Part shown: in pieces, positions 2,275 to 52,627 of the stretch
Position numbering within the stretch: the first letter of the stretch is position 1
Layout: every line of letters begins with the position of its first letter
Source: Escherichia coli
Lineage (GTDB): Bacteria > Pseudomonadota > Gammaproteobacteria > Enterobacterales > Enterobacteriaceae
Strand: one strand, 5' to 3'
NCBI RefSeq assembly: GCF_001677475.2
Contig: NZ_CP015229.1
DNA: 64,000 nucleotides
Position numbers and translations under genes: made by a program
Notes under the pieces: generated by a model
The model's input: the letters and a program-made list of their open reading frames with translations, nothing else
Database searches by the model: none
Told to the model about the DNA's origin: nothing

Positions 2275-2676
2275 ATGGGGGCTATTTATACCGAAGAACA
2301 GCGGGAAAGGTTACAGCGTCACATCGTTGACCTTGTACGTAAAAACGGGCGTATGACAATGCCACAACTGGCATCGGCAACATATGCTTCACATGATTCC
2401 ATTCGCCGGTACCTGAAGATGCTGGTGAGCCAGGGCGAAGTGTATGTTGTCAGCGGAAAAGGGGTATTCCTTTCAGAGAGAGTTTACCGTGAATGGCTGG
2501 CAAGTTCGGCAAAAAAATCAAGGGTTATCCGCAAACCAGCACAAAAACAGGGTAAGGCCGGAGTACAACCCTACGACCGGCACCAGAACGTAATTTGCCG
2601 GGAATGTCGTAACAGCGAATCAATGCAGCGGGTACTGGCTTTTTACAGGGGTGGATTTCAGGAGCTCGTATCGTGA
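2275..2676 (+). CDS. Hypothetical protein (possible DNA-binding)
   Basis: 133 aa ORF with RBS-like AGGAGAG upstream; no recognisable motif. Confidence 0.45.
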   Translation: MGAIYTEEQRERLQRHIVDLVRKNGRMTMPQLASATYASHDSIRRYLKMLVSQGEVYVVSGKGVFLSERVYREWLASSAKKSRVIRKPAQKQGKAGVQPYDRHQNVICRECRNSESMQRVLAFYRGGFQELVS

Positions 2677-2981
2677 AAAAGTGGGTGCGTGCCGAGATAC
2701 TGATTCTACGGCAGTGTGCGGGAACAATGACGGTGGAATGCATCGGGATGCTTATTGGTCGTAGTGAGGCTGCGGTCAGAACGAAAGCGCGGGAACTGGG
2801 TATTAGTATGATGTTACGGGGTGATTATCACCAGTCAGCAAAATATCCGCAGAGTGATATTGAGCTGGCGCGACAGCTGCATCAGCGTGGCGTGTCCAGG
2901 AGAGAAATCGCCAGAAAATTTGGAATGCCGCTGCGCACAGTGAATAACTACGTTTATTTCGACAGGAGGGTGTCTGCGTGA
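2673..2981 (+). CDS. Hypothetical HTH protein
   Basis: 102 aa, overlapping start/stop with neighbours; HTH-like segment. Confidence 0.4.
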   Translation: MKKWVRAEILILRQCAGTMTVECIGMLIGRSEAAVRTKARELGISMMLRGDYHQSAKYPQSDIELARQLHQRGVSRREIARKFGMPLRTVNNYVYFDRRVSA

Positions 2982-3223
2982 AAATCCTGTATCAGGATTA
3001 CGGCCCGGTGGGACAGGTGGTTATCAGCAGTACTGTAATGGAGTTCCGGAAGCATAACCGTGTGGTGGATGCAGTGCTGTTAGCCTGTCCGGGGATATCG
3101 GCGAGCCGTGCAGGTGTGTTTTTTATGAAGACGAAGTTATATGGCAGTACAGCGTGGATAAAGAAGGCGTACCGGGTAGCGTTGCAGGAGGTAAACAGTG
3201 AGCGAATCGGCAACCATTCTTGA
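2978..3223 (+). CDS. Hypothetical protein
   Basis: 81 aa ORF translationally coupled in the operon. Confidence 0.3.
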   Translation: MKILYQDYGPVGQVVISSTVMEFRKHNRVVDAVLLACPGISASRAGVFFMKTKLYGSTAWIKKAYRVALQEVNSERIGNHS

Positions 3224-45190: not shown

Positions 45191-48100
45191 ATGGGTAAAG
45201 GCAGCAGTAAGGGGCATACTCCGCGCGAAGCGAAGGACAACCTGAAGTCCACGCAGTTGCTGAGTGTGATCGATGCCATCAGCGAAGGGCCGGTTGAAGG
45301 TCCGGTGGATGGATTAAAAAGCGTGCTGCTGAACAGTACGCCAGTGCTGGACAGTGAGGGGAATACCAATATCTCCGGCGTCACGGTGGTGTTCCGGGCC
45401 GGTGAGCAGGAGCAGACACCGCCGGAGGGATTTGAATCCTCTGGCTCCGAGACGGTGCTGGGTACGGAAGTGAAATACGACACGCCGATCACCCGGACCA
45501 TCACGTCGGCAAACATTGACCGACTGCGTTTTACCTTCGGCGTGCAGGCACTGGTGGAAACCACCTCAAAGGGGGACAGGAATCCGTCGGAAGTCCGCCT
45601 GCTGGTTCAGATCCAGCGTAATGGTGGCTGGGTGACGGAAAAAGACATCACCATTAAGGGCAAAACCACCTCGCAGTATCTGGCCTCGGTGGTGGTGGGT
45701 AACCTGCCGCCGCGCCCGTTCAATATACGGATGCGCAGGATGACGCCGGACAGCACCACAGACCAGCTGCAGAACAAAACGCTCTGGTCGTCATACACCG
45801 AAATCATCGATGTGAAACAGTGCTACCCGAACACGGCACTGGTCGGCGTACAGGTGGATTCGGAGCAGTTCGGCAGCCAGCAGGTGAGCCGTAATTATCA
45901 TCTGCGCGGGCGCATTCTGCAGGTGCCGTCGAACTATAACCCGCAGACGCGGCAATACAGCGGTATCTGGGACGGAACGTTTAAACCGGCATACAGCAAC
46001 AACATGGCCTGGTGTCTGTGGGATATGCTGACCCATCCGCGCTACGGCATGGGGAAACGTCTTGGTGCGGCGGATGTGGACAAATGGGCGCTGTATGTCA
46101 TCGGCCAGCATTGCGATCAGTCGGTGCCGGACGGTTTTGGCGGCACGGAGCCGCGCATCACCTGTAATGCGTACCTGACCACACAGCGCAAGGCGTGGGA
46201 TGTGCTCAGTGATTTCTGCTCTGCGATGCGCTGTATGCCGGTATGGAACGGGCAGACGCTGACGTTCGTGCAGGACCGACCGTCGGATAAGGTGTGGACC
46301 TATAACCGCAGTAATGTGGTGATGCCGGATGATGGTGCGCCGTTCCGCTACAGCTTCAGCGCCCTGAAGGACCGCCATAATGCCGTTGAGGTGAACTGGA
46401 TTGACCCGAATAACGGCTGGGAGACGGCGACAGAGCTTGTGGAGGACACGCAGGCCATTCTCCGTTACGGTCGTAACGTCACGAAGATGGATGCCTTTGG
46501 CTGTACCAGTCGGGGGCAGGCACACCGCGCCGGGCTGTGGCTGATTAAAACAGAACTGCTGGAAACGCAGACCGTGGATTTCAGCGTCGGCGCAGAAGGG
46601 CTTCGCCATGTGCCGGGCGATGTTATTGAAATCTGCGATGATGACTATGCCGGTATCAGCACCGGCGGGCGCGTGCTGGCGGTGAACAGCCAGACCCGGA
46701 CGCTGACGCTCGACCGTGAAATCACGCTGCCATCCGCCGGCACCACGCTGATAAGCCTGGTTGACGGAAGTGGAAATCCGGTCAGCGTGGAGGTTCAGTC
46801 CGTCACCGATGGCGTGAAGGTAAAAGTGAGCCGTGTTCCTGACGGCGTTGCAGAATACAGTGTGTGGGGGCTGAAGTTGCCGACGCTGCGCCAGCGCCTG
46901 TTCCGCTGTGTGAGTATCCGTGAGAATGACGACGGCACGTATGCCATCACCGCCGTGCAGCATGTACCGGAAAAAGAGGCCATCGTGGATAACGGGGCGC
47001 ACTTTGACGGCGACCAGAGCGGCACGGTGAATGGTGTCACGCCGCCCGCGGTGCAGCACCTGACCGCCGAAGTCACCGCAGACAGCGGGGAATATCAGGT
47101 GCTGGCGCGCTGGGACACGCCGAAGGTGGTCAAGGGTGTGAGCTTCCTGCTTCGCCTGACCGTGGCAGCGGATGACGGCAGTGAGCGGCTGGTCAGCACA
47201 GCCCGGACGACGGAAACCACATACCGCTTCAGGCAGCTGGCGCCAGGAAATTACAGTCTGACGGTCCGGGCGGTAAATGCCCGGGGACAGCAGGGGGATC
47301 CGGCGTCGGTATCGTTCCGGATTAACGCCCCGGCAGCGCCTGCCACAATTGAACTGATACCGGGGTATTTTCAGATAACGGCGGTCCCGCGTCTTGCGGT
47401 GTATGACCCGACGGTGCAGTTTGAGTTCTGGTTCTCGGAAAATCAGATTACGGATATCCGGCAGGTTGAAACCACAGCCCGCTATCTCGGTACGGCGATG
47501 TACTGGACAGCTGCCAGTATTAATATCAGGCCGGGCCATGATTATTACTTTTATATCCGCAGTGTGAACATCGTCGGTAAATCAGCGTTTGTGGAAGCTG
47601 TTGGCCAGCCGGTTAATGATGCTGAGGTGTATCTCAATTTTTTTGAAGGGAAAATAAACAGCACCCTGCTGGGACAGGAGCTGAACGATCGTATTAATGC
47701 CTCGGCATTGCGCAGTGAAGTTGAGCAACTGGAGGATGAGATCAATCAGCAGATAGAGAGTGATATTGCTGAAGTGACCCAAAAAATCGGGGAGACAGAA
47801 AACAGCCTCACACAGCTGGTTGCGAAAAAAAATGATGAGCTGTCACTGGGTATATCACAGGTGAGCCAGAGAGTGGATAACGTCAGCAGCGAACTCACGC
47901 AGACGGTCAGTCAGAGTAATGAGGAGAATGCACGCCAGATAGCGCAGGTTCGCCAGTATGTGGATCAAAAAAGCAGTGAAATCATGACGACAACGGACCA
48001 AAAGCTGGGAGATCAGGAGGCCACCATCCAGCAGATACAAAAGGTTCAGACGGACACCAGTAATAACCTGAACAGTATGTGGGCCGTGAAACTGCAGCAG

Positions 48101-48445
48101 ATGCAGGATGGTCGCCTTTATATTGCGGGTATCGGTGCCGGTATTGAGAATACCCCTGACGGTATGCAGAGCCAGGTGCTGCTGGCGGCAGACAGGATTG
48201 CGATGGTTAATCCTGCGAATGGTAATACAACACCCTTGTTTGTGGCTCAGGGGGATCAGCTGTTCCTGAATGAGGTTTTCATGTCCAGGGCGACGATTGA
48301 TTTTGCGGAAATTACGGGGGTTCTTCGTTCTTCGGGATTTGAAGTCAGGGGACAGGGAGGCTGGGATCTGAGCCGGGAACTGAACTGCTTCAGGGTCGAT
48401 GATGAAAACAATGTCATTCGGGTGAGAATGGGCAGGTTACTCTGA
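45191..48445 (+). CDS. Host specificity / central tail fibre protein J
   Basis: 1084 aa; lambda gpJ-like length, position and conserved N-terminal region. Confidence 0.85.
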
Positions 48446-48454
48446 GGAGCGAAT

Positions 48455-48826
48455 ATGTCATTGCAATATGGCTGGCAAATCATGGATGCAACGGGCAGGG
48501 TGGTTACGGATACGTCTGCAATTATGTGCAGACGTTTATTCTCATATCATGTTCCGATCATTGAAGCACTGGCATCAAATATCCCGTGGTCAGTGACATT
48601 TGGTGTCAGTTTTAACAATGGAACCCCATTCACACATTGTGTGACACGGAAGGGGATTACGGTGCCTTCCGGCAGGGTATGGTATCCGGTGGCACCGGAT
48701 ATTATCATCAACGGTAACAGCGTCACCTTAACCTATACAGCAAGACATGTTTCATATCCTGATGATTTGGGGTATCTCCTGGCTGTTGGCGGTGTGGATG
48801 TTCATTGTGGGGTTTACCACCGATGA
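48455..48826 (+). CDS. Hypothetical protein downstream of J
   Basis: 123 aa; lower GC; N-terminus ...YGWQIMDATGRVVTDTSA resembles N-terminus of next ORF. Confidence 0.4.
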   Translation: MSLQYGWQIMDATGRVVTDTSAIMCRRLFSYHVPIIEALASNIPWSVTFGVSFNNGTPFTHCVTRKGITVPSGRVWYPVAPDIIINGNSVTLTYTARHVSYPDDLGYLLAVGGVDVHCGVYHR

Positions 48827-49614
48827 GCGGTTATGGCATTCAGCTAATTAATGACTATGGACTGACAGTGGCAGATGCGGAAGATGTGAATTATGTTTTG
48901 CGAAGTGCCGGTCAGTTCAGTAATGGTCATTTTATCTCCGGCGGGAACACGACGAGCGCAATCAGTCTGATAACAACCGGGATGAACAGTCCTTTATTGT
49001 TTCTGAAGATGAATACAAATAATTCGAGGCTGACACAAAAAGCCGGGGTCAATAAGCTGTCCCCTGATTTTGTTAATCCCGGAACATATATATCGGTGAC
49101 AAGTATAGACGTGTTTAAATGGTGGAATATAAATATTGGCACGGTTCAGTATTATATTTTTGACAAGTGGATACCGCCGGAGCGAAGTTCATACGGTATG
49201 CAACTGTTTGATGGTTCAGGCGGAATTATATTTGATTCCGGGTGGTATTTTCTGAAATTACGGGATGTGAAATGGCTTGAACCGCAATATCCAAACCATT
49301 CAGGGCATGAAAGCGGTAGTAACTGGAGTAATGTCGGGCATGTTTCCGATGATGTCAATAACACAGCATTATCAATGCCTCTGGGCAGGGGCTGGATTGA
49401 GTCATCCTTACAGGGTGGATATTACTATAATGAGTGTTGTCATCTTGACGGTAACGGTAATCTCTATATATCCATAATACCGACAGGTGTTTATCTCGAT
49501 ATATCACCGACAGGCGGCTGGGTTGGCTCAATGAAAACCCAGGTCATGGTTGCGGATGTATCCGGCTTACCGACGAATTATAACCCTGTGGAGATAAGGA
49601 ACGTTAACGGTTAA
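48805..49614 (+). CDS. Hypothetical protein downstream of J (N-terminal paralog of previous ORF)
   Basis: 269 aa; ...YGIQLINDYGLTVADAEDV...; Asn/Gly/Ser-rich. Confidence 0.45.
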   Translation: MWGLPPMSGYGIQLINDYGLTVADAEDVNYVLRSAGQFSNGHFISGGNTTSAISLITTGMNSPLLFLKMNTNNSRLTQKAGVNKLSPDFVNPGTYISVTSIDVFKWWNINIGTVQYYIFDKWIPPERSSYGMQLFDGSGGIIFDSGWYFLKLRDVKWLEPQYPNHSGHESGSNWSNVGHVSDDVNNTALSMPLGRGWIESSLQGGYYYNECCHLDGNGNLYISIIPTGVYLDISPTGGWVGSMKTQVMVADVSGLPTNYNPVEIRNVNG

Positions 49615-49666: not shown

Positions 49667-49692
49667 AGCCCGCCGGAACCGGCGGGCTTTTT
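49667..49692 (+). terminator. Rho-independent terminator
   Basis: CAGCCCGCCGG-AACC-GGCGGGCT + TTTTTG. Confidence 0.6.
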
Positions 49693-49704
49693 TGTGGGGT
49701 GAAT

Positions 49705-51801
49705 ATGGCAGTAAAGATTTCAGGTGTCCTGAAAGACGGAGCGGGTGAGCCTGTCGTAAACTGTGCGATTGAATTGCGTGCCAGAAGAACCAGTCCGACA
49801 GTTGTGGTTAATATTGTGGCAACCTGTCTTACGGGAAGTGATGGCGGGTATACTATTAATGCTGAGCCGGGATTTTATGATGTATTTTTGTCCCGCACAG
49901 GGCATCCTCCTGTAAAGGCGGGGGAAATTTATGTTGCACCGACAGATGAGCCGGATACGCTGAATGCTTTTCTGGATGCACCAAAGGAGGGTGATTTACG
50001 CCCTGAGGTAATGAAGCGTTTTGAGGAAATGGTAAATACCGTTGTTCGCTTGTCTGAGCAGGTGGTCAGTGACAGGGAGAGAGCAGAAACAGCTGCTGAT
50101 GATGCAATTAATGCAGCAACATCTGCGGCGGGTAGTAAGGATGAGGCAGAAGAGCTAAAAAATCAGACACAGCAGAGCGCCGAAGCTGCAGCCGGAAACG
50201 CACAGCAGACGGCACAGGATGTGACGACAACCGCAACGGCCCGTGATGATGCGGAACGTTTTGCGAATGAGGCTGAAAACAGCGCACAGTCATCAGGCAC
50301 AGCGCGGGACGAATCAGTCGATGCCGCCGAACGCGCCCGCCTTTATCATAATGCCGCATCAGCAGCAGCGACCAGTTCAGAACTGTCGGCAAATGCGGCG
50401 CTGGGGCACAAAAACAGTGCCGCCGAATACGCCCGACAGGCTAAAGCCAGCCAGGATGCAGGTGCAGACAATGCGCAGGAAGCGAAACAGTTCAGGGATG
50501 AGGCACAGCAGATTGTTGATGACCTGAATGCAACAAATGCCAGCACGACAGAAAAAGGTCTGGTGCAACTCTGTAGTGATACGGACAACGACAGCGAGGA
50601 ACTGGCTGCCACGCCAAAGGCTGTCAGACTCGTCATGGACGAGACGAAAACAAAAGCGCCACTGGACAGCCCGGCTTTCACCGGCATCCCAACCACCCCA
50701 ACCCCACCGGATGATGCCGCCGGTCTGGAAGCAGCGAACGCAGCGTTTGTGCGCAAACTGCTTGCTGCGCTGGTTGGCTCATCGCCGGAAGTTCTGGACA
50801 CCCTGAACGAACTGGCAGCGGCGCTGGGCAATGACCCGGAGTTTGCGACCTCAATCATGAATGCGCTGGCAGGCAAACAACCGCTTAATGACGTCTTAAC
50901 GGCAATCAGCGCACTGACGCAACGGTCAGATAATCTTCTGTACTTCAATACGGACGGGAATGCCTCACTGTCTCTGCTGTCAGAGAAGGGCCGCGCATTA
51001 CTGGCGCATGACACAGCTGAAGCCATGCGCACGGAGCTTGAGCTGAAAGCAGCTGCGACGATGGAACCCCAGAGTGATATTCGCGACCGCACATCCGGCA
51101 GGCTGGCGCTGTCCGGGATGTATGGGTTTGGACAGGCATTCACCAGCGCCGACGCTCTGTCATTTAACGGACAGGCTGATTTCGTTGAGTGGTTGAAGAA
51201 AGTCACGCCGGGGCGGTATGCGGTCAGTATTACAGACTCCTCGCAACTGCTTACCGGTACCACGCAATTTAACGGCATTATTGATGTGATGTGGTCACCG
51301 TACGCCAACAGTGAATCTGATACAGTCCGCAAATTTAAAACCCTGATGTGTTACAACCAGTATTATCAGGGTGAACACTGTATTCACTATATGCAGTACC
51401 GGTACAACGACAGTGATAACAGCTGGAACATGTCATCGCGGGTAGTTGTATACGACGGAGATTCTCTCGCTTATTTATTATCGCGGTTATCCGGTAATGG
51501 TCCGTTCTCATATTACCAATACCCGGCCGTCGGTGTGCCGATTATGGCGGTATATCAGGGAGAAAGTTTTGGTGAAAATGCTTCTCTGGGACTCGGTGAT
51601 ACTGTGCCGGGTTCCCGTCTTGGTCCTCTGGCCATGAGTGCACCGGTTAGTGATACAGGGACATACGCATCCTCACCGCAGGTTGTGATTGGCGGTGCCG
51701 GTGAATACAACTTCCCCGGTCGTTACATGGCGCTTTCGGGCTTAGGTAACAATTATGGTACTCAGCGTGGCTTTATCGGTCTTTTTGTACGCATTGAGTA
51801 A
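49705..51801 (+). CDS. Side tail fibre protein
   Basis: About 698 aa; conserved N-terminal tail-fibre domain, long Ala-rich repeat shaft, distinct C-terminal domain; followed by Tfa. Confidence 0.65.
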   Translation: MAVKISGVLKDGAGEPVVNCAIELRARRTSPTVVVNIVATCLTGSDGGYTINAEPGFYDVFLSRTGHPPVKAGEIYVAPTDEPDTLNAFLDAPKEGDLRPEVMKRFEEMVNTVVRLSEQVVSDRERAETAADDAINAATSAAGSKDEAEELKNQTQQSAEAAAGNAQQTAQDVTTTATARDDAERFANEAENSAQSSGTARDESVDAAERARLYHNAASAAATSSELSANAALGHKNSAAEYARQAKASQDAGADNAQEAKQFRDEAQQIVDDLNATNASTTEKGLVQLCSDTDNDSEELAATPKAVRLVMDETKTKAPLDSPAFTGIPTTPTPPDDAAGLEAANAAFVRKLLAALVGSSPEVLDTLNELAAALGNDPEFATSIMNALAGKQPLNDVLTAISALTQRSDNLLYFNTDGNASLSLLSEKGRALLAHDTAEAMRTELELKAAATMEPQSDIRDRTSGRLALSGMYGFGQAFTSADALSFNGQADFVEWLKKVTPGRYAVSITDSSQLLTGTTQFNGIIDVMWSPYANSESDTVRKFKTLMCYNQYYQGEHCIHYMQYRYNDSDNSWNMSSRVVVYDGDSLAYLLSRLSGNGPFSYYQYPAVGVPIMAVYQGESFGENASLGLGDTVPGSRLGPLAMSAPVSDTGTYASSPQVVIGGAGEYNFPGRYMALSGLGNNYGTQRGFIGLFVRIE

Positions 51802-52400
51802 TGAGGAAATCAGGCATGAAAATCAGAGCGGTGAAAGGCATCAGAAACGCACATTATCTTGAAAATGGTGCGATTGACTGCGAGGTGTTATTTGAAGGTG
51901 AAACGGAGTTCGCCATGTATACCGCCATACAGGATGATACAGCCCCGACAGGCCAGCACATCTGGCAGGAGCTGCAAAGCGGGAAATGGGGCGAAATCGT
52001 CCCGTTCACCGTCACGCCTGAACTTATTGCAGCGGCAAAGGATGCCAAAAGGCGGGAGATTGAGGCATGGCGCGACAGTCAGGAAAACGTTGAGTTTATT
52101 TTCACGTTTGATGGTCGTCGTTTTGATGGTGGAAAAACCTCGCAGTCACGCCTTGCGCCCGTGGTTGCAACAGCACAGGCCGGACTGCTTCCGGAGGGTT
52201 TTTTCTGGACTGATGCGGATAATAACAACGTCGTACTGACCAGGGAGAAACTTATTGCGCTGAACGATGCCATGATGGTGGCCATGGTGGCGGAGGGCTT
52301 TAAAATCCACGAACGTCAGCGGGAGATGAAAGAGGAGCTGAGTAGCCTCGAGGATTTACACTCAATCAGGAAGTTGCTCGTTAACTCAGAAAAAATTTGA
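51801..52400 (+). CDS. Tail fibre assembly protein (Tfa)
   Basis: 199 aa; immediately downstream of tail fibre gene; Tfa-like. Confidence 0.65.
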   Translation: MRKSGMKIRAVKGIRNAHYLENGAIDCEVLFEGETEFAMYTAIQDDTAPTGQHIWQELQSGKWGEIVPFTVTPELIAAAKDAKRREIEAWRDSQENVEFIFTFDGRRFDGGKTSQSRLAPVVATAQAGLLPEGFFWTDADNNNVVLTREKLIALNDAMMVAMVAEGFKIHERQREMKEELSSLEDLHSIRKLLVNSEKI

Positions 52401-52539: not shown

Positions 52540-52627
52540 TGGCGGAAGCGCAGAGATTCGAACTCTGGAACCCTTTCGGGTCGCCGGTTTTCAAGACCGG
52601 TGCCTTCAACCGCTCGGCCACACTTCC
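52540..52627 (-). tRNA. serT: tRNA-Ser (anticodon UGA)
   Basis: Reverse complement reads GGAAGTGTGGCCGAGCGGTTGAAGGCACCGGTCTTGAAAACCGG...GGTTCGAATCTCTGCGCTTCCGCCA; long variable arm; matches E. coli serT. Confidence 0.9.

What the first reader, a model, noticed from the sequence alone, without database searches (positions are those of the whole stretch)
48455..49614. Two lower-GC genes with related N-termini between J and the side tail fibre gene
ORFs 48455..48826 and 48805..49614 begin with similar sequences (...YGWQIMDATGRVVTDTSA versus ...YGIQLINDYGLTVADAEDV) and occupy the slot where lambdoid phages carry host-interaction cargo such as lom. The second is Asn/Gly/Ser-rich. They may be receptor-binding accessories or superinfection-exclusion proteins.
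Basis: seen in the sequence. Interest (0 to 1): 0.4.

Follow-up and report, generated by a model that had tools for sequence, protein, structure and literature searches.

The report
Split receptor-binding module after tail-tip gene J
The two genes after J are most likely separate tail-tip proteins that supply the receptor-binding function this prophage's shortened J protein lacks; they belong to a class of phage host-range cassette that is already described but has little experimental support.

Summary
Two co-oriented, translationally coupled genes, ORF1 (48455-48826, 123 aa) and ORF2 (true start ATG 48823, to 49614, 263 aa), follow J in a lambdoid prophage at tRNA-Ser/hyaA. They are lower in GC and share a ~20-residue N-terminal motif. 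ORF2 carries a third copy at residues 121-143.

They are not lom-like cargo or exclusion lipoproteins: neither has a signal peptide, lipobox, TM segment or promoter of its own. J here ends in the Phage_Tail_Tip domain and lacks the C-terminal receptor-binding domain that the common E. coli J allele (which is followed by Lom) carries.

The J, ~120-aa, ~260-aa order was found in all 24 related loci. These include virulent T1-like phages. In one of them, IME253 (65%/75% identical), the published receptor is FepA with TonB dependence.

Profile comparisons place ORF2 in the superfamily of T1 gp31 / N15 gp23. They link it more weakly to the LptD-binding RBP solved by cryo-EM.

Best reading: a split receptor-binding module docked on the J trimer. 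This is inferred, not shown. It is a new member of a known kind, of modest interest.

The motif occurs three times per module. In the solved LptD RBP, the three equivalent segments lack density. This suggests they form the J-docking element.

The parts
45191..48445 (+). J, the central tail fibre / tip attachment protein (1084 aa). Its last domain is Phage_Tail_Tip (aa 945-1077). It has no C-terminal receptor-binding domain.
   Evidence: Pfam finds FNIII-A_GpJ, Phage-tail_3, Ig_J, Ig_J_second and Phage_Tail_Tip, and no PF12421 Ig_GpJ_C. The common E. coli allele L026 (1165 aa) has PF12421 at 1029-1164.
47400..48445 (+). Lower-GC 3' part of J, with coiled-coil-like sequence plus the Phage_Tail_Tip domain. 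Its last ~160 nt are as rare in E. coli as ORF1/ORF2.
   Evidence: GC falls from about 0.6 to 0.48-0.52. 4630 of 5426 E. coli genomes match query positions 1 to about 2460-3090 of J, but only 6 match through the end of J plus ORF1 and ORF2. In L013, J is 50-86% identical before aa 720 and 100% after.
48444..48449 (+). Shine-Dalgarno GAGGAG, 5 nt before the ORF1 ATG. It overlaps the J stop codon (48443-48445).
   Evidence: Read directly from the sequence.
48455..48826 (+). ORF1, 123 aa. A small all-beta (sandwich-like) protein and the first gene of the pair.
   Evidence: Conserved directly upstream of every ORF2 homologue in 24 of 24 loci. 65% identical to IME253 gp60. AlphaFold2 gives pLDDT 84 and pTM 0.71, all beta strands. 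No signal peptide.
48458..48523 (+). Motif copy 1 (ORF1 aa 2-23, SLQYGWQIMDATGRVVTDTSAI).
   Evidence: hhalign vs the internal ORF2 copy gives E = 3e-6. Conserved in 14 distinct homologues.
48823..49614 (+). ORF2, 263 aa. An all-beta protein and the candidate receptor-binding protein. Its start overlaps the ORF1 stop (ATGA at 48823-48826).
   Evidence: 75% identical to IME253 gp61. PHROG 4062, E = 5e-36. AlphaFold2 gives pLDDT 77 and pTM 0.78. Member of the T1 gp31 superfamily.
48826..48888 (+). Motif copy 2 (ORF2 aa 2-22, SGYGIQLINDYGLTVADAEDV).
   Evidence: pLDDT is 41-52 in the monomer model.
49183..49251 (+). Motif copy 3 (ORF2 aa 121-143, RSSYGMQLFDGSGGIIFDSGWYF). It follows the conserved YYIFDKWIPPE strand.
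   Evidence: This is the most conserved block of the family. pLDDT is 53-57 in the monomer model.
49667..49697 (+). Intrinsic-terminator-like hairpin (9 bp stem, 8 G-C pairs) with a T run, between ORF2 and stf.
49699..51801 (+). Side tail fibre (Stf, 700 aa). It is context for the module, not part of it.
   Evidence: Pfam phage_tail_N and Phage_fiber_2. PHROG 2636.
51801..52400 (+). Tail fibre assembly protein (DUF4376). Context only.

Best explanation

J in this prophage stops after its Phage_Tail_Tip domain and has no receptor-binding domain of its own. ORF1 is a ~13 kDa beta sandwich and ORF2 a ~29 kDa all-beta protein. They are made from the same transcript as J; the ORF1 Shine-Dalgarno sequence overlaps the J stop, and ORF2 is translationally coupled by an ATGA overlap. 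They attach non-covalently to the J trimer, and ORF2 most likely contacts the terminal outer-membrane receptor.

The receptor is probably a TonB-dependent transporter. By analogy with IME253 it could be FepA.

The conserved ~20-residue hairpin-like motif occurs once in ORF1 and twice in ORF2. It is proposed to be the element that docks the module onto the three J chains.

What is shown: gene structure, conservation, synteny, absence of the J receptor-binding domain, absence of export signals, and superfamily membership.

What is inferred: presence in the virion, attachment to J, which of the two proteins binds the receptor, and the identity of the receptor.
For: 1. J lacks PF12421 and ends in PF09327 in the window and in IME253, while the common E. 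coli allele has PF12421 followed by Lom. Ten further J proteins upstream of homologous pairs give the same result, so 12 of 12 in all.

2. The gene order is invariant: J, then a 110-139 aa protein, then a 241-285 aa protein, with 4- or 8-nt overlaps, in 24 of 24 loci (about 16 distinct). These come from E. coli, Klebsiella, Serratia and Brenneria and from both temperate and virulent phages. The same order holds in three sampled distant relatives and in T1-type loci.

3. IME253, whose gp60/gp61 are 65%/75% identical to ORF1/ORF2, needs FepA and TonB for adsorption and infection (PMC6499177). Its genus relative Rtp carries a different cassette at the same place, and Rtp-like phages target LptD (PMC8594841).

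4. ORF2 is homologous to the T1 gp31 / N15 gp23 family. The direct profile comparison gives probability 77%, E = 2e-5. Through a profile of 126 intermediates it gives probability 98.6%, E = 1.4e-15, over the full length. That profile also matches the LptD-binding RBP family at probability 90%, E = 1.6e-6. A member of that family is seen bound to LptDE in PDB 9RPT (bioRxiv 10.1101/2025.07.07.663478).

5. There is no signal peptide, lipobox or TM segment. Lom, Cor, Rtp45 and IME253 gp62 all have one.

6. No promoter-like site lies between J and ORF2 on the + strand, and a strong terminator follows ORF2.

7. ORF1 and ORF2 co-vary strongly (Spearman 0.73-0.78), as expected for partners.

8. Distant relatives often match only the N-terminal half plus the internal motif. 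This fits a conserved attachment part and a variable receptor-contact part.

9. Published in-silico work places the T1-type pair on the J tip (PMC12309495).
Against: - No experiment shows that either protein, or any close homologue, is in the virion or binds a receptor. The published support for the T1-type pair is comparative genomics, AlphaFold models and one tentative SDS-PAGE band.
- The T1 cryo-EM did not resolve the J C-terminus or these proteins.
- ORF1 shows no detectable sequence relation to T1 gp32 or to the lambda gpJ receptor-binding domain.
- The ORF2 model has no significant match to any solved structure. The LptD RBP 9rpt_C scores only E = 0.8.
- The pair does not co-vary with the J C-terminal domain (Spearman about 0). 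There is therefore no co-evolution signal for a J contact.
- 65-75% identity to the IME253 proteins does not guarantee the same receptor.
Confidence: 0.68

Rival explanations
1. The pair acts in superinfection exclusion or receptor masking in the infected or lysogenic cell. This could be together with, or instead of, a Cor/Llp-type lipoprotein, as assumed for the two T1 genes upstream of cor.
For: In T1-type loci the pair is followed by cor in 4 of 5 loci examined. IME253 has a lipoprotein gene (gp62) right after gp61. A 2026 paper assumes the T1 pair is Sie-related and found no structural matches for it (PMC13164509). Database names such as 'outer membrane protein' and 'membrane associated protein' exist for the T1 homologues.
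Against: ORF1 and ORF2 have no signal peptide, lipobox or hydrophobic segment, so there is no evident route to the envelope. Only 2 of 15 loci of this family have a lipoprotein gene within 1.5 kb, and the window has none. The genes lie in the late tail operon without a promoter of their own, so they would not be expressed in a lysogen. They occur only with J proteins that lack a receptor-binding domain. The membrane names are not backed by predicted membrane affinity (PMC12309495).
Confidence: 0.1
2. They are assembly factors (chaperones) for the J tip or for the side tail fibre and are absent from the finished particle. J itself, through its Phage_Tail_Tip end, or Stf would then bind the receptor.
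For: Their position between J and stf would suit a fibre chaperone. The pair shows no co-variation with the J C-terminus. The authors of PMC12309495 at first considered 'structural or chaperone-like roles'. No virion evidence exists.
Against: In virulent T1-like phages the lateral fibre gene is elsewhere and on the other strand, yet the pair still follows J. A dedicated fibre assembly gene (DUF4376) already follows stf. The Phage_Tail_Tip domain is conserved among phages with different receptors, whereas the cassette changes with the receptor (PMC8594841). A related family is a proven receptor binder (9RPT).
Confidence: 0.14
3. They are lysogenic-conversion cargo (a moron) acquired in the lom slot and unrelated to the tail.
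For: Lower GC than the neighbouring genes. Lom occupies this slot in the common allele. The cassette is rare in E. coli, in 6 of 5426 genomes.
Against: The pair is conserved in virulent phages. It has no promoter of its own and is translationally coupled to the late operon. It is strictly linked to J proteins without a receptor-binding domain. It has no export signal.
Confidence: 0.03

Closest known systems
Escherichia phage vB_EcoS-IME253 gp60/gp61 (Rtpvirus, Drexlerviridae). This is the cassette downstream of gpJ in a phage whose receptor is FepA (TonB-dependent).
   Same: Full-length homologues (65% and 75% identity). Same sizes (123 aa; 265 vs 263 aa). Same order directly after a J that ends in Phage_Tail_Tip. 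Same 4-nt overlap and the same three motif copies.
   Different: IME253 is virulent and the window element is a lambdoid prophage. IME253 has a lipoprotein gene (gp62) on the opposite strand after gp61, and the window has none. The IME253 proteins are themselves annotated as hypothetical. Neither has been assigned experimentally as the FepA binder.
Phage T1 gp32/gp31, equivalent to N15 gp22/gp23 (PHROG 557 'outer membrane protein' and PHROG 425 'membrane associated protein'). This is the FhuA-associated cassette downstream of J, modelled as an 'Ig-like' plus a 'hand-like' tail-tip protein (PMC12309495).
   Same: Same architecture: J without a receptor-binding domain, then a ~100-aa protein, then a ~225-aa protein. 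ORF2 is a remote homologue of gp31. The motif is at the same places: the N-terminus of both proteins and about residue 110 of the larger one.
   Different: Direct sequence identity is negligible. Homology of ORF1 to gp32 could not be shown. T1-type loci nearly always carry cor and this family does not. The receptor presumably differs (FhuA vs FepA).
LptD-binding receptor-binding proteins of small siphophages (Rtp44; Oekolampad RBP, PDB 9RPT).
   Different: One polypeptide of ~310 aa rather than two, and often on the opposite strand with a lipoprotein partner. The direct family-to-family comparison is not significant (E = 0.017). Foldseek finds no similarity between the ORF2 model and 9rpt_C (E = 0.8).
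Phage lambda gpJ C-terminal receptor-binding domain (Pfam PF12421), and phage T5 pb5 on the pb4 trimer.
   Same: Functional analogy only. The lambda domain is the terminal-receptor binder at the end of the central fibre. T5 is the precedent for a separate monomeric RBP carried by a trimeric fibre (PMC9586334; own knowledge).
   Different: No sequence or fold match of ORF1 or ORF2 to PF12421 or to solved gpJ. pb5 is unrelated.

Membership tests
IME253 gp60/gp61-type cassette downstream of J (FepA-associated) | Full-length sequence homology of both proteins | tested here: met
   tblastn gives 65% over 123 aa (E = 1e-51) and 75% over 262 aa (E = 4e-133).
IME253 gp60/gp61-type cassette downstream of J (FepA-associated) | Position immediately after, and co-oriented with, a gpJ homologue | tested here: met
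   9 nt separate the J stop from the ORF1 start. The order is the same in 24 of 24 loci.
IME253 gp60/gp61-type cassette downstream of J (FepA-associated) | Infection depends on FepA and TonB | not testable with these tools
   Known only for IME253 (PMC6499177). No receptor data exist for this prophage.
Locus-encoded ('bona fide') RBP modules of T1-like and related siphophages | J lacks its own C-terminal receptor-binding domain | tested here: met
   PF12421 is absent and J ends in PF09327, in 12 of 12 J proteins next to such pairs. The common allele has PF12421.
Locus-encoded ('bona fide') RBP modules of T1-like and related siphophages | The protein is part of the virion and binds the terminal receptor | not testable with these tools
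   Shown by cryo-EM only for the LptD type.
T1 gp31 / N15 gp23 superfamily (PHROG 425) | Profile-level homology of the larger protein | tested here: met
   A4 vs A1: probability 77%, E = 2e-5 over 132 columns. Through the intermediate profile: probability 98.6%, E = 1.4e-15 over 216 columns. PHROG cross-hits: 425 at E = 0.0046 and 3370 at E = 1.5e-6.
T1 gp32 / N15 gp22 family (PHROG 557) | Homology of the smaller protein | tested here: not met
   hhalign A6 vs A5 gives probability 11%, E = 0.0026 over 14 columns. ORF1 hits PHROG 2427, not 557. Only the position, the size and the N-terminal motif are shared.
LptD-type RBP (Rtp44 / Oekolampad RBP, PDB 9RPT) | Sequence or fold homology | tested here: inconclusive
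Ail/Lom outer-membrane beta-barrel | Signal peptide and a match to the Ail/Lom domain | tested here: not met
   No Pfam hit at E <= 1. The mean Kyte-Doolittle hydropathy of the first 25 residues is 0.14-0.31, against 1.30 for Lom.
Cor / Llp / Rtp45 exclusion lipoproteins | Lipoprotein signal peptide with a lipobox cysteine; 60-80 aa | tested here: not met
   No lipobox. The sizes are 123 and 263 aa. The window has no Cor, gp62 or Rtp45 homologue.
Lambda gpJ C-terminal receptor-binding domain (PF12421) | Match to PF12421, or to the solved gpJ structure, by ORF1 | tested here: not met

The most novel reading that the evidence does not exclude
The conserved hairpin-like motif is the J-docking element, and it always comes in threes to match the J trimer: one copy in ORF1 plus two in ORF2. 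The same holds for T1 gp32 plus gp31, and all three copies lie in one chain in the LptD-type RBPs.

On this reading, all these cassettes downstream of J, which a recent survey calls unrelated families, would share one attachment solution to the 3:1 symmetry mismatch. Their receptor-contact parts would be the exchangeable portion.

If so, ORF1+ORF2 is a split version of the same device. A lambdoid STEC-associated prophage would then have acquired from T1-like virulent phages a cassette aimed at a TonB-dependent siderophore transporter.

Support:
[quoted passage not shown] These contain the three motif copies.
- The two motif segments of ORF2 are the low-confidence parts of its monomer model.
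- The superfamily profile aligns motif-domain-motif collinearly with Rtp44 residues 114-241.
Probability: 0.3. Interest if true: 0.55.

Novelty: new member of a known kind. Interest (0 to 1): 0.33.

Why it matters
The cassette downstream of J decides which outer-membrane protein a large group of siphophages uses for DNA entry. It is exchanged between virulent and temperate phages.

Only the LptD type has experimental backing. For the T1-type pair, the literature still holds two opposed readings: tail-tip receptor binder, or exclusion-related membrane protein.

This locus adds a temperate, E. coli-resident member of the least studied allele, the one linked to FepA in IME253. The pair here occurs without any exclusion lipoprotein and next to a J that clearly lacks its receptor-binding domain. 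That helps separate the two readings.

If the three-motif docking idea holds, it would give a simple sequence rule for recognising such modules and a handle for swapping receptor specificity in engineered phages.

Tried and rejected
- Pfam and NCBIfam give nothing for either protein. There are no PDB sequence relatives.
- I first thought ORF1 and the two halves of ORF2 were three copies of one domain. Profile comparisons show the similarity stops after about 20 residues.
- I thought the J C-terminal tail carried a fourth copy of the motif. The score is only 5.4 bits, and that stretch is simply the end of the general Phage_Tail_Tip domain. Dropped.
- I expected the J C-terminus to co-evolve with the pair. 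The mirror-tree analysis shows no correlation, although one E. coli prophage has a recombination boundary at J aa 720.
- A motif HMM from this family does not score the T1 motifs above background. The T1 parallel therefore rests on position and on weak profile hits.
- One BFVD structural neighbour is named as having a bulb-type lectin domain, but Pfam gives no B_lectin signal. Not pursued.
- jackhmmer from T1 gp31 on the collected set did not converge on anything at a realistic database size.
- A search for virion proteomics of these proteins found nothing usable.

Full report
**1. What is there**

The window holds a lambdoid prophage whose right end abuts tRNA-Ser(tga) at 52540-52627 and hyaAB. 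The tail genes run L, K, I and J (45191-48445), then two ORFs, then the side tail fibre gene stf (49699-51801) and a DUF4376 fibre assembly gene.

ORF1 is 48455-48826 (123 aa). A GAGGAG Shine-Dalgarno sequence precedes it and overlaps the J stop codon.

The mechanical start of ORF2 is TTG 48805. The ATG at 48823 overlaps the ORF1 stop (ATGA) and gives the N-terminus MSGYG..., which every homologue shares. ORF2 is therefore 48823-49614 (263 aa).

A strong terminator-like hairpin follows at 49667-49688. No promoter-like site lies between J and ORF2 on the + strand.

GC is 0.42-0.47 over the two ORFs against 0.56-0.64 in most of J. The drop starts inside J near 47400.

**2. The N-terminal similarity**

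The similarity is real but short.
- Pairwise BLASTP is weak (E = 0.006). It aligns the ORF1 N-terminus with an internal stretch of ORF2 at residue 124, not with the ORF2 N-terminus.
- With family profiles, the ORF1 N-terminus matches the internal ORF2 copy at E = 3e-6 and the ORF2 N-terminus at E = 9e-4. The two ORF2 copies match each other at E = 2e-3. In each case the alignment ends after 18-22 residues.
- In a non-circular test, an HMM trained only on internal copies ranks the ORF1 N-terminus first among 165 ORF segments of the window, but with only 7.8 bits.

What makes the motif convincing is its conservation at the same three positions in all homologues and across a wider superfamily.

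**3. Relatives and context**

The proteins have no Pfam or NCBIfam family. Only PHROGs of unknown function match them.

They are rare.
- ORF2 has 23 clusters at 90% identity among 5.8 billion proteins, and ORF1 has 6.
- 6 of 5426 complete E. coli genomes carry the locus, always annotated as hypothetical.

Phage records with both genes include the virulent Rtpvirus IME253 and four near-identical isolates, two Klebsiella weberviruses and a Brenneria phage.

In 24 of 24 loci examined (about 16 distinct) the order is J, then a 110-139 aa protein, then a 241-285 aa protein. The last two overlap by 4 or 8 nt.

A profile search of 1.84 billion representatives found 202 relatives at E <= 0.001. Most are 210-270 aa. 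Three sampled ones sit in the same context.

**4. J lacks a receptor-binding domain**

The window J (1084 aa) has the Pfam domains FNIII-A_GpJ, Phage-tail_3, Ig_J, Ig_J_second and Phage_Tail_Tip, and it ends there. The common E. coli allele (1165 aa) has in addition PF12421, the C-terminal receptor-binding domain, and is followed by an Ail/Lom gene.

Ten further J proteins upstream of homologous pairs also end in Phage_Tail_Tip and lack PF12421.

4630 of 5426 E. coli genomes match the first 2.5-3.1 kb of this J at about 93% identity. Only six continue through the J 3' end and the two ORFs.

**5. What the pair is not**

Neither protein has a signal peptide, lipobox or hydrophobic segment. Lom, T1 Cor, Rtp45 and IME253 gp62 all do.

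The window has no homologue of those lipoproteins. Only 2 of 15 loci of this family have a lipoprotein gene within 1.5 kb downstream, against 4 of 5 T1-type loci.

This argues against lom-like cargo and against a role tied to Cor-type exclusion.

**6. Link to known systems**

[quoted passage not shown] Its alleles track the terminal receptor (PMC8594841; bioRxiv 10.64898/2026.04.02.716166).

IME253 needs FepA and TonB (PMC6499177). Its genus relative Rtp carries a different cassette there (rtp44/rtp45) and is assigned to LptD.

T1 has J, then gp32 (101 aa), then gp31 (229 aa), then cor. The sizes and order are the same as here.

ORF2 is a remote homologue of gp31.
- The direct profile comparison gives probability 77%, E = 2e-5.
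- Through a profile of 126 intermediates it gives probability 98.6%, E = 1.4e-15, over the full length.

No homology of ORF1 to gp32 could be shown.

The T1-type pair has been modelled in silico as a small 'Ig-like' protein and a 'hand-like' protein capping a J that lacks a receptor-binding domain (PMC12309495). A 2026 paper instead assumes the pair is related to exclusion (PMC13164509). The T1 cryo-EM did not resolve this region. The function of the class is therefore not settled experimentally.

**7. Structures**

AlphaFold2 gives confident all-beta models for ORF2 (pLDDT 77, pTM 0.78) and ORF1 (pLDDT 84, pTM 0.71).
- ORF2 has no significant PDB match. It has 20 matches among predicted phage proteins, all uncharacterised.

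**8. The three-motif observation**

LptD-type RBPs are single ~310-aa proteins. They carry three copies of a similar motif, near residues 1-14, 115-130 and 210-225.

The superfamily profile aligns its 'motif, ~95-residue domain, motif' segment with Rtp44 residues 114-241 (probability 90%, E = 1.6e-6). The direct comparison with the ORF2 family is not significant.

[quoted passage not shown] These are the three motif-bearing segments.

In my monomer model of ORF2 the two motif segments are the low-confidence parts.

ORF1 plus ORF2, and T1 gp32 plus gp31, also total three copies. I therefore propose, as an inference, that the three hairpins form the part that docks on the three J chains.

Against a specific J contact, pairwise distances of the pair do not correlate with those of the J C-terminus (Spearman about 0). 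ORF1 and ORF2 correlate strongly with each other (0.73-0.78). This pattern fits an exchangeable cassette on a generic platform, but it is not positive evidence for contact.

**9. Verdict**

The finding is a genuine gene pair. It is best explained as a split receptor-binding module of the central tail fibre. It is the temperate E. coli relative of the IME253 cassette and a distant member of the T1 gp31 superfamily.

The kind is already described, so novelty is limited to a new member. Small additions are the homology between the FepA- and FhuA-associated families and the three-motif pattern.

Virion presence, the J contact, the division of labour between ORF1 and ORF2, and the receptor all remain untested.

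Noticed in passing
window 13689-30852: The prophage's large terminase gene is split. The N-terminal part is 13689-14879 (TerL_ATPase plus nuclease profile positions 2-64). The C-terminal part is 30130-30852 (nuclease profile positions 64-283). Between them lies a ~15.3 kb element encoding an integrase, Bro-N, an AAA_25 protein, a major capsid protein, a prohead protease, a portal, TerS and TerL. None of its ORFs checked with Pfam is a tail gene. From my own knowledge, it looks like a capsid-forming PICI-type satellite inserted into terL. The same terL/integrase junction, near window 14711-14717, is present in 35 of 5426 E. coli genomes. About 900 genomes match only the terL side.
   Followed up: partly
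L002 6810-6995 (IME253 gp62, minus strand): The 61-aa gene right after gp61 encodes a lipoprotein signal (MKKLIVITAMILAGC), like T1 Cor and Rtp45. It is a candidate exclusion protein directed at FepA. It has no homologue in the window and is absent from most loci of this family.
   Followed up: partly
L001 5892-9110 (NZ_CP013662.1): RefSeq annotates the J gene of the near-identical E. coli prophage as a pseudogene ('incomplete; missing C-terminus'). The ORF is intact at 1084 aa. The flag probably reflects the natural absence of the receptor-binding domain and so looks like an annotation artefact.
   Followed up: partly
L031 1437-3227; also P0124, P0141, P0146: Some distant relatives of ORF2 are 513-597 aa long. 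The ORF2-like N-terminal ~140 residues are fused to a long unrelated C-terminal part. In L031 the gene follows a separate 140-aa Phage_Tail_Tip protein and an 89-aa protein, and a DUF4376 gene comes after it.
   Followed up: no
window 47645-48025 (J aa 819-944): Between Ig_J_second (ends at aa 818) and Phage_Tail_Tip (starts at aa 945), this J has about 125 residues of heptad-like, Gln/Glu/Ser-rich sequence. The common allele has about 53 residues there (818 to 872). The central fibre is therefore probably longer.
   Followed up: no
window 10380-10631 and 9640-10350: tRNA-Met and tRNA-Arg(tct) genes lie inside the prophage, next to an AraC-type HTH gene.
   Followed up: no
window 33780-35276: A 499-aa ORF in the head-gene region, after the portal and protease genes, gives only a weak Pfam hit to Mu-transpos_C_2 (E = 9e-8) rather than to a capsid family.
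   Followed up: no
L035 and L036 (Salmonella phage FSL SP-016, Klebsiella phage NJS3): In these phages, homologues of the LptD-type RBP lie directly after J on the same strand. In Rtp, mEp515 and vB_EcoM_50EP the homologue lies on the strand opposite to J.
   Followed up: no
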